Shown: positions 2,273 through 24,554 of the stretch, in pieces | How the letters are laid out: every line of letters starts with the position of its first letter | Numbering within the stretch: the stretch's first letter is position 1 | Translations under genes and position numbers: made by a program | The notes under the pieces: model-generated | Told to the model about the DNA's origin: nothing | What the model saw: the letters and a program-made list of their open reading frames with translations, nothing else | Databases searched by the model: none | NCBI GenBank assembly: GCA_008080735.1 | Contig: SHMW01000061.1 | Coordinates: 1 to 27,297, forward strand | Direction: 5' to 3' | Source of the DNA: Promethearchaeota archaeon | GTDB lineage: Archaea; Asgardarchaeota; Lokiarchaeia; Sigyniarchaeales; SOKP01 | Length of the DNA stretch: 27,297 nt

Positions 2273-3982
2273 TTATTCTTGCCGTAAAGCCTTCTTTTCT
2301 ACCTTACCGACCATTGTTTGAGGAAGTTCTTCTCTGAATTCCCATAATTTAGGAACTTCATACTTGGCAAGATGTTCTCGAGCATAATTTTTGATATCCT
2401 CTTTAACTTTCTCACTTGCTTCTACACCTTCCTTAAGCTGGATGACTGCTTTCACGATTTCCGAACCAGGTCTATCTGCATCAGGAACTCCAATTATTGC
2501 CATGATCTGGATCGCGGGATGTTTTGTAAGTACTTCCTCGACATGTACGCTATATACCTTAAATCCACTTACACTCAACATATCTTTTGTGCGATCTACA
2601 ATCTTTAGATAGCCATCTTCATCAAAAACACCCACATCACCTGTATGAAGCCAGCCATCAATCCACGTTTTCTCAGTTGCTTCGGGTTTATTATGATATG
2701 ATTTAGTCACTTGAGGGCCTTTCAACAGTATTTCTCCAGGTTCTCCCAATGGAACTTCTTCACCAGTTTCCACATTTATGAGCTTGACTTCTGTATCTGG
2801 TAAAGGTAATCCTACTTTTCCGATTTTCTTTTCTCCATAAGTAGGATTCACGGTTGCAAGAACTGCAGACTCAGTCATCCCATAGACTTCAACGAATTTA
2901 TTTTCCGTATGAAATCGCTTTTCAAAATCTCGAATCGCCTCTGAAGGAAAAGGGGCCGCGCCGGATACATACAAATTAATATTATCTAAGACCTCATCTG
3001 GGATTTCCTTGGAACGAGGATTTCTTTGGACCATCAAATAGAGAGTAGGAACATTCCCAAACACACTTGGTTTAATCTCCATTATTTGGTCGATGATATG
3101 ATCAGTATCCCTTGGGTTTGCGATGATAATATGGGAAGAGCCGATATATGTTAAATATAGCCCGATAAACAATCCAGCGATATGGAAATAGGGAAATGCT
3201 GATAATGTAATATCAGTTCCCTTATCGCGATCCAACCATACTTCGAACTGGTGCATATTGGATACCAGATTAGAATGGGTTATATTCACACCTTTTGGTC
3301 GACCCGTAGTTCCGCCTGTGTATTGAATTAGAGCACGGTCTTGTAGTGCGTTGATTGATACTGGTTTGACATTCGGTTTCGTCTTCAAGACTTCCAAGAA
3401 AGGGACCATATTTTTATTGGGATATGGATCCATTTTTCCTTTAGGAATTTTTCCGATAAGTTTGCCCATGAATACTTTAAATCCAGAAAAGCCCATAAAC
3501 TCAGAAATATTTGAAGGGATAATCGTTTCCATATGAGGGAGTTTTTCCAAGATTTTCTTCATAATTTTTTCGTAAATGATGTCCATGGTTACTAAAAATT
3601 TCGCACTGCAATCGTTGAGCTGATATACCATTTCGGGCGGACTAAGGAGGGGAGATAAGCCAGTTGCGATTCCTCCAGCAAGAAGAGTACCATAAAGTGA
3701 AATAAGATATTGTGGCGTATTAGGAAAACAAATTGCTACCACATCCCCTTTTTGCAAGCCTTTTTGTTGAAGAAAAGTGGCGAATCTTTGCGCATCATCC
3801 AGAATCTCACCGAATGTCATTTGGCGATCCATAAAATAAAATCCAGTTCTATCAGAATATTTGGTCATCGCACGGCTTAAAAGTGTCATTATATCTTCTT
3901 TTGGGTATTCTAAAGAGGGGGGTACGTGTTCATCATAGGAGTTGAGCCATAATTTTTCTTTTTCTTTAGCTATTTGAGTTAT
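2273..3982 (-). CDS. Long-chain fatty acid--CoA ligase, paralog of 457-2172. Start extended from the ORF-track ATG (3889) to a probable ATA at 3982.
   Basis: Motifs IQYTGGTTGRPKG, YGMTE, WLHTGD and LPQTMVGKVEKK. The frame stays open upstream of 3889 and encodes ITQIAKEKEKLWLNSYDEHVPPSLEYPKEDI, matching the paralog's KFWKKNWDPHV start. AGGTGA lies at 3994-3989 on the - strand. Confidence 0.9.
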   Translation of the reverse strand: MTQIAKEKEKLWLNSYDEHVPPSLEYPKEDIMTLLSRAMTKYSDRTGFYFMDRQMTFGEILDDAQRFATFLQQKGLQKGDVVAICFPNTPQYLISLYGTLLAGGIATGLSPLLSPPEMVYQLNDCSAKFLVTMDIIYEKIMKKILEKLPHMETIIPSNISEFMGFSGFKVFMGKLIGKIPKGKMDPYPNKNMVPFLEVLKTKPNVKPVSINALQDRALIQYTGGTTGRPKGVNITHSNLVSNMHQFEVWLDRDKGTDITLSAFPYFHIAGLFIGLYLTYIGSSHIIIANPRDTDHIIDQIMEIKPSVFGNVPTLYLMVQRNPRSKEIPDEVLDNINLYVSGAAPFPSEAIRDFEKRFHTENKFVEVYGMTESAVLATVNPTYGEKKIGKVGLPLPDTEVKLINVETGEEVPLGEPGEILLKGPQVTKSYHNKPEATEKTWIDGWLHTGDVGVFDEDGYLKIVDRTKDMLSVSGFKVYSVHVEEVLTKHPAIQIMAIIGVPDADRPGSEIVKAVIQLKEGVEASEKVKEDIKNYAREHLAKYEVPKLWEFREELPQTMVGKVEKKALRQE

Positions 3983-15899: not shown

Positions 15900-16118
15900 T
15901 TACAACATAATATTTTCTTGGGGTTCAGTTTCGAGTTCAGGCTCGGTAATGGAACCATAATTTCTTTTAATTCTCTCCTCAATGAGATATTCGGTTTTTA
16001 TTAAATCGCGAATTCCAACTCGGATCGCTTCTGATCTGTTGGGAAATTTACCATCTGCCACTAGAATTTCTAATATTTCCAAATATGTCTCGGGTAAGTT
16101 AACACTTATCAATTTCAT
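15900..16118 (-). CDS. Ribbon-helix-helix (CopG/Arc/MetJ) transcription regulator, CdrS-like
   Basis: N-terminal beta-strand KLISVNLP, then helices with GKFPNRSEAIRVGIRDLI. GGTGA ribosome-binding site at 16130-16126 on the - strand. Confidence 0.9.
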   Translation of the reverse strand: MKLISVNLPETYLEILEILVADGKFPNRSEAIRVGIRDLIKTEYLIEERIKRNYGSITEPELETEPQENIML

Positions 16119-16332
16119 TTGTATATCACCATTCTGATAATTTATTATTTATTATATTGATATATACCGAGGTGATATTTAAGTATTTAGTGGAAATAGC
16201 CCCCAAGAAATCCGACAGAAATAGAAACACCTATTTTTGGATGAATTGGGCGACAAAAACAATCCCTACCTCACTGTCGTCCATATAGTAACATTTTCTA
16301 AAAAAATAATGAAAAAATTATTTAAACTATAT

Positions 16333-16356
16333 CACAATATCATTGTGTAACACAAT
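16333..16356. promoter_or_regulatory. Candidate operator: three alternating CACAAT boxes at 9-nt spacing
   Basis: CACAAT (16333-38), ATTGTG (16342-47) and CACAAT (16351-56), just downstream of an A-rich tract and TTTAAA (16321-26). Confidence 0.45.
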
Positions 16357-16380
16357 ATATATAGAGAGTATGCTAAAAAA

Positions 16381-16701
16381 ATGTCTGATATTCAAGGTCA
16401 GTTAAAAGAGCATTTGGAAAATGCTGAAGAATGGGGAAAGATGGAAACTCCTATTCCAGGAGTATTTGTCGTAAAAGTCCCGGGAAGCAAAACCAGACCT
16501 CCGATGTTATTTTTAGAGATTAATCCCTTAAAATCGAACGGCAAACCTATGAAACGTAAAGGACTATTTGTCAGAGATTATGAGATGTTAGTGAAATTCA
16601 GTGAAGCTTTAACCGATGACAAGGTCGTTCGGTTAATTAAAGAATTGGAAGATGTTAATCCGGACGAAAAAAAGAATAAAACTAAAAAATTGAAGATGTA
16701 A
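16381..16701 (+). CDS. Small hypothetical protein, possibly PC4-like nucleic-acid-binding fold
   Basis: Clean ATG ORF with oligo-T downstream. Beta-rich first half and a GKPMKRKGLFV motif followed by a helix. Fold assignment is tentative. Confidence 0.75.
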   Translation: MSDIQGQLKEHLENAEEWGKMETPIPGVFVVKVPGSKTRPPMLFLEINPLKSNGKPMKRKGLFVRDYEMLVKFSEALTDDKVVRLIKELEDVNPDEKKNKTKKLKM

Positions 16702-16920
16702 ATAATCATTACGAATCTCTTTATGCTCACTTTTTCCCCTTTTTTCTTATGAGGACAGAATTACCATAGTCTCTTTTTTGTGAATTTCTGCTAAAACATA
16801 AATAGGTTTATTATTTAGTTTAAATCAAAAATAATTATATAAACTTAAAATTTTGAAATAATTCTATAAAACAGAAATTACAGAAAATTAAGTGTTAGTG
16901 ATTGAAAGAAGTGATATAAA

Positions 16921-17230
16921 ATGGCAGAGGAATTTGATGGTAAACATTGTTCAGAATGCGGTGGAGACTCATTTCGAATAGCCCACGATGAATGGATGAG
17001 AATTTAAGCATTTCGCTAACATCATCAATCGAACATTCAGATTCGTGGAAAACGGACAATTAAAAATGTGCAATTCTTGCGGGGCAAAATTCTTAGTCTG
17101 TGAGGAATGTGGAAATCTCTATACCCGTGTTCATCCAGCATTGGAAACTTGGGAAGTCTCTCAAAAATGTCCAGTCTGTGGGCACGTAGACCCCGAAGTG
17201 AAAGCCTGGGATGGCGTATCGGCTCGATAA
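16921..17230 (+). CDS. Double zinc-ribbon protein, split gene: join(16921..17000,17029..17230), 93 aa
   Basis: AAGTGAT ribosome-binding site at 16909-16915 and ATG at 16921. Exon 1 is MAEEFDGKHCSECGGDSFRIAHDEWM with one CxxC. The downstream +1 frame carries three more (CNSC, CEEC, CPVC). The joined product has four CxxC motifs. Oligo-T follows 17230. Confidence 0.8.
17001..17028 (+). other. Putative 28-nt bulge-helix-bulge (archaeal-type) mRNA intron
   Basis: Central 4-bp helix GAUG (16995-98)/CAUC (17023-26) with 3-nt bulges AG^A (16999-17001) and AA^U (17027-29). Excision at the canonical positions restores the reading frame. Confidence 0.68.
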
Positions 17231-17256
17231 TTTTTTTCTTCCTTTTTTTACTTTTC
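17231..17256 (+). terminator. Oligo-T archaeal terminator
   Basis: TTTTTTTCTTCCTTTTTTTACTTTT immediately after the stop codon. Confidence 0.6.
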
Positions 17257-17474
17257 CACCATTTATGATGAATAGGTTATGACTAATTTTATCGCAATTT
17301 TAGACAATATAGCACACCACATATATTTGAAATATTCATAGAGATTTATAAGGAGAGAAAATAAACTTAAGATATATATTCACAATTTATTTACCCAGAG
17401 AATACAAAATTTTAATTGCAAACCTTAAATTGTATTATATCATTAATTGATAAAACGAAGCTATTGTAAGGATT

Positions 17475-17954
17475 ATGAGTAAAAATAATATCAAAGTAGA
17501 AATCGCATCACCAGAGCAAATAGACGCATTAAAAGAGCTTACGAAACTATTAGTGGAAGGATTAGGACAAGATTTTGAGCCCAAAAGATTTGATTGGGGG
17601 ATTAGACGGCGATTATTTGATCCATTACAACGACATGGAATTTTAATCGCAACAGATGAGAGAACCGGAGATGTCGTTGGAATGATTATCGCGGAACTCC
17701 GAATCGATCCTTTTGGGAAGTCTGAAGGATATATCAAACAATTTTTCTTAAAAAACGATTATCGAGGACATGGGATTGGTCACCAGCTTTTACAACAAGC
17801 ACTCGGACATCTTAAAAAAATCCAAGTGGAGAAGGTCAAAGTGAATATTAGAGAAGAGGCAAAGCGCGCTGCAAAACTATATGAACGGATGAATTTCGAG
17901 AAAAAATATGAAGTGCTCGAATTAGACCTCGAAGAAGATTATCCAGATAAATAA
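17475..17954 (+). CDS. GNAT-family N-acetyltransferase
   Basis: Acetyl-CoA binding motif A (YRGHGIGHQLL) and C-terminal AAKLYERMNF. Confidence 0.9.
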   Translation: MSKNNIKVEIASPEQIDALKELTKLLVEGLGQDFEPKRFDWGIRRRLFDPLQRHGILIATDERTGDVVGMIIAELRIDPFGKSEGYIKQFFLKNDYRGHGIGHQLLQQALGHLKKIQVEKVKVNIREEAKRAAKLYERMNFEKKYEVLELDLEEDYPDK

Positions 17955-17979
17955 TTACATCTAATGGATCTACATTTTT

Positions 17980-18963
17980 ATGAGTATTGATTTAGAAGTT
18001 TGGGTTGAGAAATACAGGCCAGCTGATTTTGACGAGATAGTCAGCCAAAATATTGCGGTAAATAATTTAAAGTCGTTTGTAAAAGACAAATTTGATATGC
18101 CCCATATGATATTCGCAGGACCTGCGGGTACAGGAAAAACGAGTACCGCATTAATTATTGCGAATAAACTACTGAAAAAAGATAAATATTATAGAAATGT
18201 CTTAGAGCTAAATGCCTCGGATACGGTAAGAATGAAATTTGTCAGAGAAAAATTAAACGATTTTGTAAATCAAAACATGATTCTCACGGAAAACGAGCTC
18301 AAAATAGTTATATTGGATGAGGCAGATAATATCCCGAAAACGGTTCAGCAGACACTCAGAAGAATAATCGAGAGTGCCCCTACCAACGTGAAATTTATTT
18401 TAATGTGTAATTATATTAACCAAATTATTGATCCAATCGTTTCGAGATGTGCAGTCTTTAGATTTGTAAGTCTCCCAAAAGAAAAAGTGGTAGAAAAGCT
18501 CAAGTATATAGCCCAACAAGAAGATCTCTCCATTCCTAAAGAGAGAGAAAAAGAATTTTTTGATACATTATATTTCATCTCTTCTGGTGATTTACGGAAA
18601 GCAATTAATACCTTACAGATGGCAGTCTCCTTAGAATTATTAAAGGACCTTAATATCGATGAAATCTTAAAAATTTCTGGTTTTATAGAAAATGCTGTCT
18701 TTATAAACCTTAAAACCGCTTTGCTGGATGGCCATTTTCTCAAAGCAAGAGAAATTTTTACCTCAATAGATTATCTCGATAGTCGTAATTTTATCCGACA
18801 ATTGATGCAACTAATTCCAGATTTACATGAGATGGGTAATATCGAAAAATCAGAACTAATTTCCTATTTTGGAGATATTGATTATTATATTAGTCAAGGT
18901 GGAGATGAGGAGATTCAATTAACTTCCCTCTTAGCAGAAATTGCTACAAAAAAAAAGGTATAA
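17980..18963 (+). CDS. rfcS: Replication factor C small subunit 1
   Basis: WVEKYRP, Walker A GPAGTGKT, LELNASD, Walker B ILDEAD, SRC arginine finger and GDLRKAIN. Confidence 0.95.
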   Translation: MSIDLEVWVEKYRPADFDEIVSQNIAVNNLKSFVKDKFDMPHMIFAGPAGTGKTSTALIIANKLLKKDKYYRNVLELNASDTVRMKFVREKLNDFVNQNMILTENELKIVILDEADNIPKTVQQTLRRIIESAPTNVKFILMCNYINQIIDPIVSRCAVFRFVSLPKEKVVEKLKYIAQQEDLSIPKEREKEFFDTLYFISSGDLRKAINTLQMAVSLELLKDLNIDEILKISGFIENAVFINLKTALLDGHFLKAREIFTSIDYLDSRNFIRQLMQLIPDLHEMGNIEKSELISYFGDIDYYISQGGDEEIQLTSLLAEIATKKKV

Positions 18964-18997
18964 AAAATACTTCAAAAAAGAGTTAGAAACAAAAAAA

Positions 18998-20044
18998 ATG
19001 TCAGAAGATTCCCCTATTTGGCGCCTTAAGTATCAGCCGCAAGTATTAGATGATATCGCAGGACGAGAAAGTACGATTTCGAGATTGAAAGAAGTCATTC
19101 AAAAAGGAAATTTTCCTCACCTCTTATTTGTGGGGAGTGAAGGAATAGGAAAAACCACTATCGCCCGATTATTTGCTAAAGAATTTTTGGGGCGATATTA
19201 TGATGCCAATTTTAAATTGGTCTATGCGGATGTTCCCTTAAGTCAAGACGAAAGAAATCAAGCACGTTCTGAAGCCTATGTATCTACTAATAGAATAGGG
19301 AGTATGGCAGGGAAGAAAATAACGACTCCGGCTTTTATCCAAGTAAAGATAAAACCCTTTGTCCAATTGAAAATGATTGGTGATATTCCCTTTAAAATTC
19401 TCGTGGTTAAAAATTTTGAAGTGCTTGGCTCAGATCAGCAAGGATTTAGGAGATTAATGGAAATCTATGGCTCAAATTGCAGGATGATACTTATAACCAC
19501 CAAGATCTCTGGAATAATTGATCCAATAATCTCTAGATGTCAACTATTCCTAATTCCTCAAATTACATATGAAAATTTTGAAACTCTCATTAAGTCAATT
19601 GCACAAAAAGAATCTCTTGAATTAGCATCAGGAACATTAGAATTCTTATATAGAATTTCTGAAGGAAAAATAGCGAATGCAATAGATTTACTCCAATTAA
19701 GTAGCACAAGGGGTAAAAAGATAGATTTAAATGTGCTTTATAATAATATGAAAAAATTTCGAAATCAAGAGATTAGAGAGCTCTTAAAAAAGACTTTTAC
19801 TGATGAATTCAAAGAAGCTCGAGAACTCTTCAGAGAAATTTCATCTGAATATAAATATAACGCTCACGAATTTTTTGTGAAACTATTAGAGGAAATTCAC
19901 AGACTTCCATTTTCTCAATATACAAAAAGTAAAATAATTAATATGATTGCGGATGCGGATGTTCGAGCGCTTGAAGGATTAGATGATGACATTCAGATAT
20001 CCGCACTAATTACAAAATTAGCCGAATTAACTGAAGGGATGTGA
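18998..20044 (+). CDS. Replication factor C small subunit 2 with degenerate Walker B. Likely start is ATG 18998 rather than TTG 18941.
   Basis: WRLKYQP, PHLLFVG, Walker A GSEGIGKT and IISRC. The Walker B position reads KILVVKNFE, and there is an insertion after Walker A. Confidence 0.88.
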   Translation: MSEDSPIWRLKYQPQVLDDIAGRESTISRLKEVIQKGNFPHLLFVGSEGIGKTTIARLFAKEFLGRYYDANFKLVYADVPLSQDERNQARSEAYVSTNRIGSMAGKKITTPAFIQVKIKPFVQLKMIGDIPFKILVVKNFEVLGSDQQGFRRLMEIYGSNCRMILITTKISGIIDPIISRCQLFLIPQITYENFETLIKSIAQKESLELASGTLEFLYRISEGKIANAIDLLQLSSTRGKKIDLNVLYNNMKKFRNQEIRELLKKTFTDEFKEARELFREISSEYKYNAHEFFVKLLEEIHRLPFSQYTKSKIINMIADADVRALEGLDDDIQISALITKLAELTEGM

Positions 20045-21408
20045 AAAAATTGTCTGAAAGTTCCAAAGAACCTTGGGTTGAGAAATATAGGCCAGAATCC
20101 ATAAAAGATATGGCGCTTCCTTCTGCAAAATTGGGCAGACAGAGGGTAAATTTGGCAGAACACTTAACTGAATTTGTTAAATCCTTCTTCACTGAAATTG
20201 AAAAGATAAATAAAAAAAACAAGAAAATTCGGGCGTTCAATAGAACAGCTACTGAAAAACAGCAAAAGGAAGAAATGAGTTTACCCCCAGAGAAGGCTGC
20301 TGTTTTACTGGAGGGAAAACCGGGAATAGGGAAAACTTCAATAGTCTATGCGCTTGCTAATGATCTGAATATGGAAGTAATTGAGACTAACGCTTCAGAT
20401 ACCCGTACTCGAGAGAGTTTGGAAGCAAAACTTAAGGAAACTTCTAAATCCCGTGGAATAATGGATTTTATCACAGAAAAAAAGAAAAAATTACTCCTTG
20501 TGGATGAAATAGATGGTATTTATGGGACAAAAGATAGAGGGGCGGTACCTGCAATCCTTGATTTAGTCAAGGAGACACAATTTCCTATTATAATGTGCGC
20601 TAATGATTATAAATCAAATCTTCAATCGTTATATAATTTAATTCCTCGCTATGAAGTCCATCCCCTTCCGAAAGAAGAAGTTCTTAAAATCGTGAGTAAG
20701 ATAATCAAAAATGAAAAAATCACAAATATAACCGAAGGAGATTTAGAGCTTATTATTGATAAAAATGCGGGAGATCTGCGAGGCGTGATAAATGATCTTC
20801 AAGCATTAAGTAAGGGGGAGGGAATAGCTACAGAGGAAAAAAAGGATATGATTGACTCGCTACACAGAGATTCCACAGAAGAGATTTTTGGACTGATTCG
20901 TGATTTGTTCCAGAAAGTCCATTCTTTGAATGAGGCCCGAGCTCTTACAGACAAATCAGATGTGGATTATAACTTTTTATATAAATGGGTCAATCAAAAT
21001 ATTCCTTCCTTCATTACCTACAAGGATGAATTGAAAGAAGCATATGAAAATTTAGCGGTTGCAGATGAGGTATTTGGCAGAATTCGTCGAAATATGGAAT
21101 GGTCGTTGTTGCCGTATTTTTATGATTTATTCGCAGGTGGAGTCGTCCTTACGCAAAAAAAGAGTCATTCAACAGGATTTAGACCTGTGAGCTTTCCGCG
21201 CTATAGTTCTTCGGGGGGGATGTCTGTAAATGCCTCAGAACGGAGCTTATACCAAAAAATACGACAAGAATATGAAATCTCCCAAACTGAGGCGATTCGA
21301 GATTTTATTCCGTTTTTAAAGGTATTAGCGGGACTATCTAGACGAGATTTGAAAGATATTAGTGATTGGTTGGATCTTACCGCCAGAGAGAAAAATATCT
21401 TGAAATGA
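20041..21408 (+). CDS. rfcL: Replication factor C large subunit
   Basis: PWVEKYRP, GKPGIGKT, IETNASDTR, LVDEIDG, GDLRGVINDLQ and ADEVFGRIRR...WSLLPY. No SRC motif. The start overlaps the previous stop (GTGA). Confidence 0.92.
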   Translation: MKKLSESSKEPWVEKYRPESIKDMALPSAKLGRQRVNLAEHLTEFVKSFFTEIEKINKKNKKIRAFNRTATEKQQKEEMSLPPEKAAVLLEGKPGIGKTSIVYALANDLNMEVIETNASDTRTRESLEAKLKETSKSRGIMDFITEKKKKLLLVDEIDGIYGTKDRGAVPAILDLVKETQFPIIMCANDYKSNLQSLYNLIPRYEVHPLPKEEVLKIVSKIIKNEKITNITEGDLELIIDKNAGDLRGVINDLQALSKGEGIATEEKKDMIDSLHRDSTEEIFGLIRDLFQKVHSLNEARALTDKSDVDYNFLYKWVNQNIPSFITYKDELKEAYENLAVADEVFGRIRRNMEWSLLPYFYDLFAGGVVLTQKKSHSTGFRPVSFPRYSSSGGMSVNASERSLYQKIRQEYEISQTEAIRDFIPFLKVLAGLSRRDLKDISDWLDLTAREKNILK

Positions 21409-23276: not shown

Positions 23277-24554
23277 ATGGAACTTACAAGTCAAATTAAG
23301 GAATATATTCTCGAGGGAGTGGTTAAGAGATTTCTTAAATATGTTCAAATAGATTCCCAATCTGATGATAATTCTAACTCGTTTCCATCCACTCAAGAAC
23401 AAATTCAGTTTGGAAAGGTTTTAGTGGAAGAACTTAAACTTTTAGGATTGCAAAACATCATCCATGATAAATATGGTTATATTTATGCTCAATTGCGTGC
23501 ATCTAAGGGATACGAAAGTTCTCAAGAAATCGGACTAATTGCTCATTTAGATACCTCCCCTTCTGTGAATGGAAAAGATGTCAAACCCAAAATACATTCA
23601 AATTACCAAGGAGGCGTAATAAATTTTGAAAAAAATAAGAATTTGGTTCTCTCTCTGGAAGATTCGCCAGCATTAAATGACTATATGGGAGAAGATATCA
23701 TTACTTCAAAAGGTGATACTTTACTTGGAGCGGATGACAAGGCGGGAATAGCTGAGATAATGACGCTCTGTGATGTTTTATCTACATTCACGCAATTAGT
23801 ACATGGTCCCATTGTGATTTGTTTTTTTCCTGATGAAGAGTTAGGAAAAGGTACCGAAAAAATCGATATTTCCAAATTACCCCGCATTTGCTATACTGTC
23901 GATGGTTCTAGAATAGGTGAATTGGAATTTGAATGTTTTGATGCGTGGAAGGTCAATATAATTTTTAAGGGATTGAACGTTCATCCGGGTTATGCAAAAG
24001 GATTGATGATAAATTCGATTCATATAGCAGCGCAGTTCATTAGTGATCTGCCGGAATTTGAAACTCCACGAAATACCGAAGGAAGAGAAGGATTTTATCA
24101 TCTTATATCTCTTAAAGGAACGCCAGAAAAATCAAAAGCAACTCTCCTATTACGAGATTTCGAAGAGGAGAAGAATTCAGAGCGATTTAAATATCTCGAA
24201 ATTCTAAAAACTTTATATGAGAGAAAATATGAAGGGCTCAAAATTGAAATAGATGTAGAACATCAATATGAGAATATGAAAAAATATCTGGAGAGCGATT
24301 CTAAGGTAATTAAAATTGCTAAAGAGGCAATTCAAAAGGCTGGGTTAGATCCGATCATCCATTCCATTAGAGGAGGAACTGACGGTGCACACTTAAGCAA
24401 AAAAGGAATACCAACCCCAAACCTATTTACTGGTGGAATGCTCTTTCATTCTAAAAAGGAATATATACCAAAAATTGCTTTGCAAAAAGCAACAGAAGTT
24501 CTTTTGTATTTAAGCCTTTTATGGAAAAAACATAAAAAAATGAAAGAAAAATAA
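23277..24554 (+). CDS. pepT: Peptidase T (tripeptide aminopeptidase, M20B)
   Basis: RFLKYVQIDSQS, AHLDTSP, TLLGADDKAG, PDEELG, HPGYAKG, IRGGTDG and PTPNLFTGG. Confidence 0.93.
   Translation: MELTSQIKEYILEGVVKRFLKYVQIDSQSDDNSNSFPSTQEQIQFGKVLVEELKLLGLQNIIHDKYGYIYAQLRASKGYESSQEIGLIAHLDTSPSVNGKDVKPKIHSNYQGGVINFEKNKNLVLSLEDSPALNDYMGEDIITSKGDTLLGADDKAGIAEIMTLCDVLSTFTQLVHGPIVICFFPDEELGKGTEKIDISKLPRICYTVDGSRIGELEFECFDAWKVNIIFKGLNVHPGYAKGLMINSIHIAAQFISDLPEFETPRNTEGREGFYHLISLKGTPEKSKATLLLRDFEEEKNSERFKYLEILKTLYERKYEGLKIEIDVEHQYENMKKYLESDSKVIKIAKEAIQKAGLDPIIHSIRGGTDGAHLSKKGIPTPNLFTGGMLFHSKKEYIPKIALQKATEVLLYLSLLWKKHKKMKEK

What the first reader, a model, noticed from the sequence alone, without database searches (positions are those of the whole stretch)
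16921..17230. Candidate bulge-helix-bulge intron (28 nt) inside an Asgard protein-coding zinc-ribbon gene
Seen in sequence: an RBS-preceded ATG at 16921 opens MAEEFDGKHCSECGGDSFRIAHDEWMRI and stops at TAA 17005-07, with a second in-frame TAA at 17017-19. This leaves one orphan CxxC, and the other three CxxC motifs sit in the +1 frame to 17230. The RNA across the break can form a BHB: GAUG(16995-98) pairs with CAUC(17023-26), each followed by a 3-nt bulge (AGA, AAU). The intron side closes with A17002-U17022 and U17003-A17021, continuing imperfectly to GC/GC around an AUUUC loop. The exon side closes with G16994-C17030 and U16993-G17031. Established knowledge: the archaeal tRNA-splicing endonuclease EndA cuts after the second nucleotide of each bulge and RtcB ligates; mRNA introns of this kind are known mainly from crenarchaeal cbf5. 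Applying that rule removes exactly 17001-17028 (28 nt, 3n+1) and creates AG|U (Ser). The result is one 93-aa frame, ...HDEWM-S-RTFRFVENGQLKMCNSCGAKFLVCEECG...CPVCG..., with two complete zinc ribbons. Inference: this is a spliced mRNA. The structure-derived cut sites and the frame requirement agree independently. Weakness: the exon-side helix is short.
Basis: partly seen in the sequence, partly recalled or inferred. Interest (0 to 1): 0.93.

Follow-up and report, generated by a model that had tools for sequence, protein, structure and literature searches.

The report
tRNA-type mini-intron in Asgard zinc-ribbon gene
A small zinc-binding protein gene of a Loki-type Asgard archaeon is broken by a 28-base insert shaped like a tRNA intron, and comparison with about 130 related genomes indicates that the insert is cut out of the messenger RNA by the tRNA-splicing enzymes, a kind of splicing published for only one archaeal protein gene (cbf5).

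Summary
Window 16921-17230 holds one 93-codon gene for a four-CxxC zinc-ribbon protein, interrupted by 28 nt (17001-17028).

- **Orthologs.** The gene occurs in 131 of 154 genomes of the order. All inspected uninterrupted copies read DEWM-x-RTF with exactly one residue at the break.
- **Other carriers.** Thirteen distinct sequences carry 28-30-nt inserts at three sites of this gene. Each parses as a 4-bp helix with two 3-nt bulges. Cutting after the second bulge base restores the ortholog-length frame in every case.
- **Structure.** The helices covary. At the window's site 91% of cells pair, against 29-45% when partners are slid.
- **Selection.** Exons of intron carriers are under strong purifying selection (dN/dS 0.03-0.12), and the inserts change far less than synonymous sites.
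- **Enzymes.** The genome encodes two EndA paralogs and two RtcB ligases.
- **Missing evidence.** No RNA data could be obtained, so excision itself is inferred.

I put about 0.88 on a bulge-helix-bulge intron in an mRNA. That makes it a new member of the cbf5 kind, in a new phylum and a new gene. The scan has reported such introns before on other DNA of this and other Asgard genomes. I confirmed three further cases in this genome: DnaG, AMP phosphorylase and an acyl-CoA ligase.

The parts
16911..16915 (+). Shine-Dalgarno-like GTGAT, 5 nt before the start codon
   Evidence: read from sequence
16921..17000 (+). Exon 1: codons 1-26 (first CxxC, ...HDEWM) plus the first two bases (AG) of the junction codon
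   Evidence: aligns to residues 1-27 of uninterrupted orthologs
16987..16994 (+). 5' strand of the exon-side helix h: 16993-94 pair with 17030-31; after a 2x2 internal loop, 16987-90 pair with 17034-37
   Evidence: read from sequence; 97.9% of cells paired across 8 carriers, but nearly invariant because it is coding
16995..16998 (+). 5' strand of the central 4-bp helix H (GAUG), exon sequence
   Evidence: 100% paired in 8 sequences
16999..17001 (+). 5' three-nt bulge AGA; predicted cut between 17000 and 17001
   Evidence: archaeal EndA cleavage rule (established knowledge)
17001..17028 (+). The 28-nt intron; carries TAA 17005-07 and 17017-19 in the exon-1 frame and shifts the frame by +1
   Evidence: absent from all inspected uninterrupted orthologs; removal restores the 93-codon frame
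17002..17022 (+). Intron-side helix h': 17002-09 pair with 17015-22 (6 of 8 pairs), 5-nt loop 17010-14
   Evidence: read from sequence; three inner pairs show compensatory changes in relatives
17023..17026 (+). 3' strand of the central helix H (CAUC), intron sequence
   Evidence: becomes CGUC or CAUU in two relatives, still pairing by G-U
17027..17029 (+). 3' three-nt bulge AAU; predicted cut between 17028 and 17029
17029..17230 (+). Exon 2: last base of the junction codon, then RTFRF... with three CxxC motifs, stop TAA 17228-30
   Evidence: orthologs in 51 of 61 relatives match from RTF onward
17231..17249 (+). Two oligo-T runs after the stop, a likely archaeal terminator
   Evidence: read from sequence; inference

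Best explanation
Window 16921-17230 is one gene for a 93-residue, four-CxxC zinc-ribbon protein of unknown function. The protein family is specific to Lokiarchaeia/Promethearchaeota.

The primary transcript carries a 28-nt bulge-helix-bulge intron at 17001-17028. I infer the following mechanism:
1. The transcript folds so that exon bases 16995-98 pair with intron bases 17023-26, each strand followed by a 3-nt bulge.
2. The heterotetrameric tRNA-splicing endonuclease EndA, of which the genome encodes two paralogs, cuts after the second base of each bulge.
3. RtcB joins the exon ends, creating an AGU (Ser) codon and a continuous reading frame. The intron is released, probably as a circle.

Shown here: the insert, its motif, its absence from orthologs, covariation, selection on exons and on the intron, and the presence of the enzymes. 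Inferred: cleavage and ligation in vivo.

Unspliced RNA can give only a 28-residue peptide, so making the full protein depends on splicing.
For: 1. **Orthologs.** The gene is found in 131 of 154 genomes of the order. All inspected uninterrupted copies read DEWM-x-RTF with one residue at the break.
2. **Independent assemblies.** The same insert stands in five independent assemblies of the window's lineage. These are G000, G006, GCA_014730295, JGI 3300007533 and JGI 3300022699, with 28 or 29 nt, so it is real DNA.
3. **Further carriers.** G016 and G075 (30 nt) and GCA_016839315 (30 nt) carry an insert at the same site with different inner sequences. G070, G073, G114 and G115 (29-30 nt) carry one 8 nt upstream. 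G156 (29 nt) carries one inside HPALE|SWEV.
4. **Motif and frame.** All nine genome representatives parse with a fully paired 4-bp helix and two 3-nt bulges. The bulge rule restores the full frame for lengths 28, 29 and 30 alike. The four extra public carriers do the same when read by eye and spliced for the tree.
5. **Covariation, window's site.** 91.4% of cells pair, against 29-45% when partners are slid. H pairs in 100% of cells. Three inner pairs change on both sides.
6. **Covariation, upstream site.** 92% of cells pair, against 43-56% when slid. One H pair is seen as C-G, U-A and U-G.
7. **Selection on exons.** G000 versus G006 shows 36 synonymous and 10 nonsynonymous differences, dN/dS 0.03. 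G016 versus G075 gives 0.03, and the site-B carriers give 0.07-0.12.
8. **Selection on the intron.** It changes far less than synonymous sites. G000 versus G006 differ by 2 substitutions and 1 indel while dS is 1.65. G016 and G075 are identical over 30 of 30 nt while dS is 0.47.
9. **Enzymes.** Two EndA paralogs (200 and 205 aa, TIGR00324) and two RtcB genes are present. Asgard EndA is reported as the (alpha-beta)2 type with the L1 loop, which gives broad substrate range (PMC5829648).
10. **Same genome.** DnaG, AMP phosphorylase and an acyl-CoA ligase carry 30-37-nt inserts with the same parse.
Against:
- The window's own motif is the weakest of the set. The inner helix has two mismatches, only 2 exon-side pairs adjoin the bulge, and free-energy folding prefers a 5-bp central helix with a 7-nt 3' bulge.
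- 0.5% of shuffled inserts pass the motif test, so the single locus is not decisive by itself.
- The exon-side helix is invariant because it is coding, so it says nothing for or against the structure.
- G016 and G075 lack an in-frame ATG, GTG or TTG start, which could mean decay in that lineage, although their dN/dS is 0.03.
- EndA activity on an mRNA has never been tested for any Asgard archaeon.
Confidence: 0.88

Rival explanations
1. Inactivated gene: the inserts are disruptive insertions and the gene is a pseudogene in the carriers.
For: Unspliced, the frame stops after 28 codons. G016 and G075 have also lost the canonical start codon, and G075 has a Gly-to-Arg change next to the first CxxC.
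Against: Exons of carriers are under strong purifying selection after long divergence (dN/dS 0.03-0.12 at dS 0.5-1.6). No carrier has any second lesion in either exon. The inserts are themselves conserved and always have the same motif and a frame-restoring cut.
Confidence: 0.04
2. Split gene: exon 1 (28 residues, one CxxC) and exon 2 (from GTG 17045 or a later ATG) are translated as two separate peptides.
For: Public annotation calls exon 2 alone as proteins of 54-79 residues. GTG 17045 is in frame.
Against: No Shine-Dalgarno-like motif precedes 17045. The conserved RTFRF residues upstream of that GTG stay under selection in carriers. The three insert sites would give three different splits. 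A split does not explain the conserved motif or the conservation of the insert.
Confidence: 0.03
3. Translational recoding: ribosomes bypass or frameshift across the insert, as in T4 gene 60 hopping.
For: In the window an AUU codon (17002-04) precedes the stop, and AUC codons at 17021-26 lie in the exon-2 frame, so a hop is formally possible.
Against: Such a hop would add 2-3 residues that no ortholog has. The carriers need shifts of +1, +2 and 0 (28, 29 and 30 nt). G016 has no matched take-off and landing codons. The only feature common to all carriers is the bulge-helix-bulge motif.
Confidence: 0.03
4. Assembly or sequencing artefact.
For: None beyond the fact that the source is a metagenome-assembled genome of 140 contigs.
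Against: The insert is present in five independent assemblies of this lineage and in eight other sequences. The site-C allele is present on at least 20 contigs from many samples.
Confidence: 0.01

Closest known systems
BHB intron in the cbf5 pre-mRNA of Crenarchaeota (Watanabe 2002; Yoshinari 2006; Yokobori 2009, PMC2738675)
   Same: [quoted passage not shown] The organism has a hetero-oligomeric EndA. Presence is patchy among close relatives, implying gain and loss.
   Different: The phylum (Asgard/Lokiarchaeia) and the host gene (a 93-residue zinc-ribbon protein) are different. Three alternative insertion sites occur in one tiny gene. The same site is occupied in three separated clades. Splicing is not yet shown experimentally here.
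Archaeal tRNA introns, including the heavily interrupted tRNA genes of Asgard archaea (bioRxiv 10.64898/2026.10.13.758758; Marck and Grosjean 2003)
   Same: Same motif geometry: a 4-bp helix with 3-nt bulges lying 3' of each strand. Same size class: ARAGORN calls tRNA introns of 24-31 nt in this genome. Same presumed enzymes. Half of the motif is made of exon sequence.
   Different: The host is an mRNA. The exon half of the motif is therefore constrained by codons, not by a cloverleaf, and excision must also preserve the reading frame.
HAC1/XBP1 unconventional mRNA splicing in eukaryotes (Ire1 endonuclease, RtcB or Trl1 ligase)
   Same: A protein endonuclease cuts a small structured intron out of an mRNA, and a tRNA ligase (RtcB in metazoa) joins the exons. 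Removal changes the frame and so allows synthesis of the full protein.
   Different: The nuclease (Ire1) and the recognition motif (twin stem-loops) are different. That system is a regulated stress response, and no regulation is shown here.

Membership tests
Archaeal bulge-helix-bulge (EndA-type) intron | 4-bp central helix flanked by two 3-nt bulges on opposite strands | tested here: met
   16995-98 pair with 17023-26, with bulges at 16999-17001 and 17027-29. H pairs in 100% of cells in 8 site-A carriers.
Archaeal bulge-helix-bulge (EndA-type) intron | Flanking helices h (exon) and h' (intron), or at least one of them (relaxed forms) | tested here: met
   h' pairs 6 of 8 positions. h has 2 pairs, a 2x2 loop, then 4 pairs. 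This is imperfect in the window. Relatives are stronger: G016 has a 7-bp h', G073 a 10-bp h', and in G156 the free-energy minimum is the full motif.
Archaeal bulge-helix-bulge (EndA-type) intron | Cuts placed by the motif give a product colinear with intron-less homologs | tested here: met
   Excision of 28, 29 or 30 nt restores DEWM-x-RTF or HPALE-SWEV in all 9 representatives and in 4 further public sequences.
Archaeal bulge-helix-bulge (EndA-type) intron | Structure maintained in evolution (covariation) | tested here: met
   Searches show compensatory changes in h' and H. Slid controls pair in 29-56% of cells, against 91-92% observed.
Archaeal bulge-helix-bulge (EndA-type) intron | Splicing endonuclease and RtcB ligase encoded by the organism | tested here: met
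   Two EndA paralogs and two RtcB genes.
Archaeal bulge-helix-bulge (EndA-type) intron | Excision observed in RNA (spliced junction, circular intron) or by EndA in vitro | not testable with these tools
cbf5 pre-mRNA intron family | Located in the cbf5 pseudouridine synthase gene of Desulfurococcales or Sulfolobales | tested here: not met
   The host is an uncharacterised zinc-ribbon gene of Lokiarchaeota/Promethearchaeota. It is the same kind of intron but not the same family.
Self-splicing group I or group II intron | Ribozyme core of hundreds of nucleotides | tested here: not met
   The insert is 28 nt. There is no Rfam match in 16000-18000 at E up to 1.
Programmed translational bypass (T4 gene 60 type) | Matched take-off and landing codons flanking the skipped stretch in all carriers | tested here: not met
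   A match is possible only in the window's lineage (AUU/AUC). It is absent in G016. The required frame shifts differ among carriers.

The most novel reading that the evidence does not exclude
This gene is one visible case of routine splicing of messenger RNAs by the tRNA-splicing machinery in Lokiarchaeial Asgard archaea. On this reading, mini-introns of about 30 nt are gained repeatedly, or move, wherever exon sequence can supply half of the motif. Here the same site is occupied in three separated clades. A second site lies 8 nt upstream at a repeat of the same GAUGA exon word. The introns at both sites share a central UUCG-type word. Expression of many proteins, DnaG included, would then depend on EndA and RtcB, and could be regulated through them.
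Probability: 0.55. Interest if true: 0.92.

Novelty: new member of a known kind. Interest (0 to 1): 0.8.

Why it matters
In the papers I could search, endonuclease-dependent splicing of a protein-coding message is documented in archaea only for cbf5 of Crenarchaeota.

Here the same mechanism is supported by comparative evidence in the archaeal group closest to eukaryotes. It affects an unrelated gene, at three positions, with signs of repeated gain or long retention. At least three other genes of the same genome are interrupted in the same way.

- **Origin of split genes.** If RNA data confirm it, interrupted protein genes and an enzymatic mRNA-splicing route existed in Asgard archaea independently of group II introns and the spliceosome. 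That bears on how split genes arose.
- **Annotation.** Gene callers currently mis-annotate these genes as truncated fragments. Public records hold 54-79-residue stubs of this family.
- **A compact test system.** A 64-nt transcript and two small recombinant EndA subunits would be enough to test cleavage.

Tried and rejected
- **Genome-wide scan.** I scanned G000 for the motif combined with fusion of two open frames, against a control with parallel pairing. It did not discriminate: 7209 versus 6737 hits with 4 inner pairs, and 800 versus 733 with 6. Boundaries between adjacent genes and the AT-rich composition give too many chance hits. It also missed the window's own intron, whose inner helix has only 2 contiguous pairs. 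No genome-wide count is claimed.
- **Free-energy folding.** It does not return the canonical motif in the window and gives weak z-scores. I therefore rejected it as a detection criterion.
- **Protein function.**
  - Pfam gives only sub-threshold zinc-ribbon matches.
  - The AlphaFold model is of moderate confidence (pLDDT 67.5).
  - The model has no PDB fold match at E up to 0.001.
- **Mobile element.** No second copy of the intron exists in the genome; the best other match is 17 nt.
- **L059.** A 56-residue call at a contig end has unrelated upstream sequence and could not be interpreted.
- **L060.** This 76-residue call is an uninterrupted gene called from an internal ATG.

Full report
**Observation**

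- An ATG at 16921, preceded by GTGAT at 16911-15, opens 28 codons (MAEEF...HDEWMRI) that end at TAA 17005-07. A second in-frame TAA lies at 17017-19.
- The +1 frame is open from 17000 to the stop at 17228-30 and carries three further CxxC motifs.
- GAUG (16995-98) is complementary to CAUC (17023-26), and each is followed by three unpaired bases.
- Deleting 17001-17028 gives a single 93-codon frame with AGU at the joint.
17002-09 pair with 17015-22 at 6 of 8 positions around a 5-nt loop. The exon-side helix resumes for four pairs (16987-90 with 17034-37) after a 2x2 internal loop.
- Taken alone the locus is only suggestive. 0.5% of shuffled inserts pass an equivalent motif test. Unconstrained folding prefers a 5-bp central helix with a 7-nt bulge.

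**The decisive comparison**

The exon-2 protein has matches in 51 of 61 relatives. A full-length ortholog finds the gene in 131 of 154 genomes of the order.
- In every uninterrupted locus that I read (about 40), the protein runs ...DEWM-x-RTFRF... with exactly one residue (K, R, S, Q or A) where the window has its 31 nt. The outcome named as refutation, an in-frame KHFANIIN-like stretch, was not seen.
- The insert is not an assembly error. It stands in G006, the closest species, where it is 29 nt. It also stands in three further public assemblies of the same lineage, with 28 or 29 nt: GCA_014730295, JGI 3300007533 and JGI 3300022699.
- In the ortholog tree these five sequences form one supported clade (98/90).

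**More introns in the same gene**

Nine of the genome representatives are interrupted, all within the window's family.
- **Site A (the window's site).** It is also occupied in G016 and G075, and in GCA_016839315, by 30-nt inserts that carry an in-frame stop. Their inner sequences are quite different from the window's: a 7-bp and a 5-bp perfect inner helix respectively.
- **Site B.** It lies 8 nt upstream, between HDE and WM, and holds 29-30-nt inserts in G070, G073, G114 and G115.
- **Site C.** It lies inside HPALE|SWEV and holds a 29-nt insert in G156. There the unconstrained minimum-energy fold is the complete helix-bulge-helix-bulge-helix motif. That allele is on at least 20 contigs from many samples.
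- **Common features.** In all thirteen sequences the central 4-bp helix is fully paired and followed on each strand by 3 unpaired bases. Cutting after the second bulge base restores the ortholog-length frame whether the insert is 28, 29 or 30 nt (for the nine representatives; for the four public sequences). At the joint G016 and GCA_016839315 regenerate AAA (Lys), the consensus residue.

**Covariation**

On eight site-A sequences the proposed structure pairs 91.4% of cells, against 29-45% when the 3' partners are slid by 1-3 columns.
- The central helix pairs in 100% of cells. Two changes keep pairing by wobble (CAUC to CGUC and to CAUU).
- Three inner-helix pairs change on both sides, six cells in all. 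No shuffle out of 500 reached that number.
- At site B 92% of cells pair, against 43-56% when slid. One central-helix pair occurs as C-G, U-A and U-G. With only three distinct rows the shuffle control says nothing there.
- The exon-side helix hardly varies because it is coding, so it neither supports nor opposes the structure.

**Selection**

Exons of intron carriers are under strong purifying selection.
- G000 versus G006 shows 36 synonymous against 10 nonsynonymous differences (dS 1.65, dN/dS 0.03).
- G016 versus G075 gives dN/dS 0.03. The site-B carriers give 0.07-0.12.
- Over the same divergence the inserts barely change. G000 and G006 differ by two substitutions and one indel. G016 and G075 are identical over all 30 nt while about a third of synonymous sites differ.

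A dead gene would show neither pattern. A neutral insert would not be more conserved than synonymous sites.

**Machinery and context**

- The genome encodes two EndA paralogs (200 and 205 residues, both above the TIGR00324 cut-off, one with a weak beta-subunit match) and two RtcB ligases. This fits the (alpha-beta)2 EndA with the L1 loop reported for Asgard archaea, the type that accepts relaxed motifs outside a tRNA context (PMC5829648).
- ARAGORN finds only 26 tRNA genes in this 93%-complete genome, 16 of them with introns, several of 24-31 nt. That agrees with a preprint on heavily interrupted Asgard tRNA genes (10.64898/2026.10.13.758758), which does not treat mRNAs.
- No tRNA gene or Rfam family overlaps the locus.
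- The intron is not a repeated element in the genome.

**Rivals**

- **Pseudogene.** Contradicted by the selection data and by the absence of any second lesion.
- **Split gene.** It does not explain the conserved motif, the conserved residues upstream of the candidate internal start, or the three different split points.
- **Ribosomal bypass or frameshifting.** It would need shifts of +1, +2 and 0 in different carriers and would add residues that no ortholog has.
- **Artefact.** Excluded by the independent assemblies.

What remains unproven is excision itself. I put 0.88 on the intron reading.

**Evolution (inference)**

- Site A is occupied in three separated clades of the tree. This needs either three gains at one position or an old intron with many precise losses.
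- Sites A and B both use a GAUGA exon word that occurs twice, 8 nt apart. Their introns share a central UUCG-type word at the same offset. That is compatible with an 8-nt move of one intron, but it is not shown.

**Comparison with what is known**

- The closest published case is the cbf5 intron of Crenarchaeota (PMC2738675). It is the same kind of element and presumably uses the same enzymes, but the gene and phylum differ.
- Four literature searches found no report of such introns in Asgard protein-coding genes.
- Earlier notes of this scan describe similar inserts in other genes of this genome and in other Asgard genomes.
- I checked three of the same-genome notes at the level of sequence. 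An acyl-CoA ligase (contig C30) has a 37-nt insert, AMP phosphorylase (C49) a 30-nt insert and DnaG (C77) a 32-nt insert. Each interrupts a conserved motif and parses with a 4-bp helix and 3-nt bulges.
- My own genome-wide scan did not separate signal from control, so I give no total.

**The protein**

The product is an uncharacterised 93-residue protein with four CxxC motifs, annotated as hypothetical in Lokiarchaeota/Promethearchaeota records.
- It has only sub-threshold zinc-ribbon Pfam matches.
- Its model is of moderate confidence and has no PDB fold match.
- In several assemblies it sits between a 106-residue ORF and a GNAT acetyltransferase gene.

**Verdict**

This is a new member of the known kind "BHB intron in an archaeal pre-mRNA". 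It is unusually well supported by comparison and still lacks RNA proof.

Noticed in passing
G000 contigs C30 (+, cut near 24052), C49 (-, near 18458 on the reverse strand), C77 (-, near 3060 on the reverse strand): Three other conserved genes of the same genome carry inserts of 37, 30 and 32 nt. They are an acyl-CoA ligase (DNYWQTE|TGWPIL), AMP phosphorylase (DKHS..GGVPGN) and DnaG (GAIFGQ|TEGL). Each insert lies exactly inside a conserved motif and parses as a 4-bp helix plus two 3-nt bulges.
   Followed up: partly
L042:261-290, L045:284-312, L044:261-290, L043 (reverse strand): A second intron position in the same gene lies 8 nt upstream of the window's site, at a repeat of the GAUGA exon word. 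The introns at both sites share a central UUCG-type word at the same offset, which hints at an 8-nt intron move or a common origin.
   Followed up: partly
L046 (reverse strand, intron 399-427 of the reverse complement); L061, L062: A third intron position (HPALE|SWEV) has a palindromic central helix CUAG/CUAG and AAA bulges, so the splice sites look like an 8-nt direct repeat. The read-through stub protein of this allele is on record from at least 20 contigs of many samples.
   Followed up: partly
L022:296-320 and L041 (reverse strand): In G016 and G075 the gene has no in-frame ATG, GTG or TTG. A GGTG Shine-Dalgarno-like motif is followed by ATT and CTG codons in frame, so the start may be non-canonical. 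G075 also has Gly-to-Arg next to the first CxxC.
   Followed up: no
whole genome G000: ARAGORN calls only 26 tRNA genes in a 93%-complete genome, 16 of them with an intron. Many tRNA genes are probably interrupted at non-canonical positions and were missed.
   Followed up: no
L035, L037, L038, L039, L040, L027: In several genera the zinc-ribbon gene has a tandem paralog about 100 nt away that reads DSILKRK instead of DEWMKRT at the intron site. None of the paralog copies seen was interrupted.
   Followed up: no
window 17980-21408: Three RFC-like AAA+ genes stand in a row (327, 367 and 455 residues). In the third, the Rad17 P-loop match (residues 5-32) and the AAA match (from residue 88) are separated by an unmatched stretch.
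   Followed up: no
L059:1-69: A JGI contig end has sequence upstream of the KMC...CG motif that is unrelated to the rest of the gene. It may be a larger insertion, a rearrangement or a chimeric contig.
   Followed up: no
public protein records P0054, P0058, P0062-P0067: Gene callers record intron-bearing copies of this family as stubs of 54-79 residues (exon 2 alone, or exon 1 read into the intron). Such introns are therefore hidden as truncated 'hypothetical proteins' in databases.
   Followed up: partly
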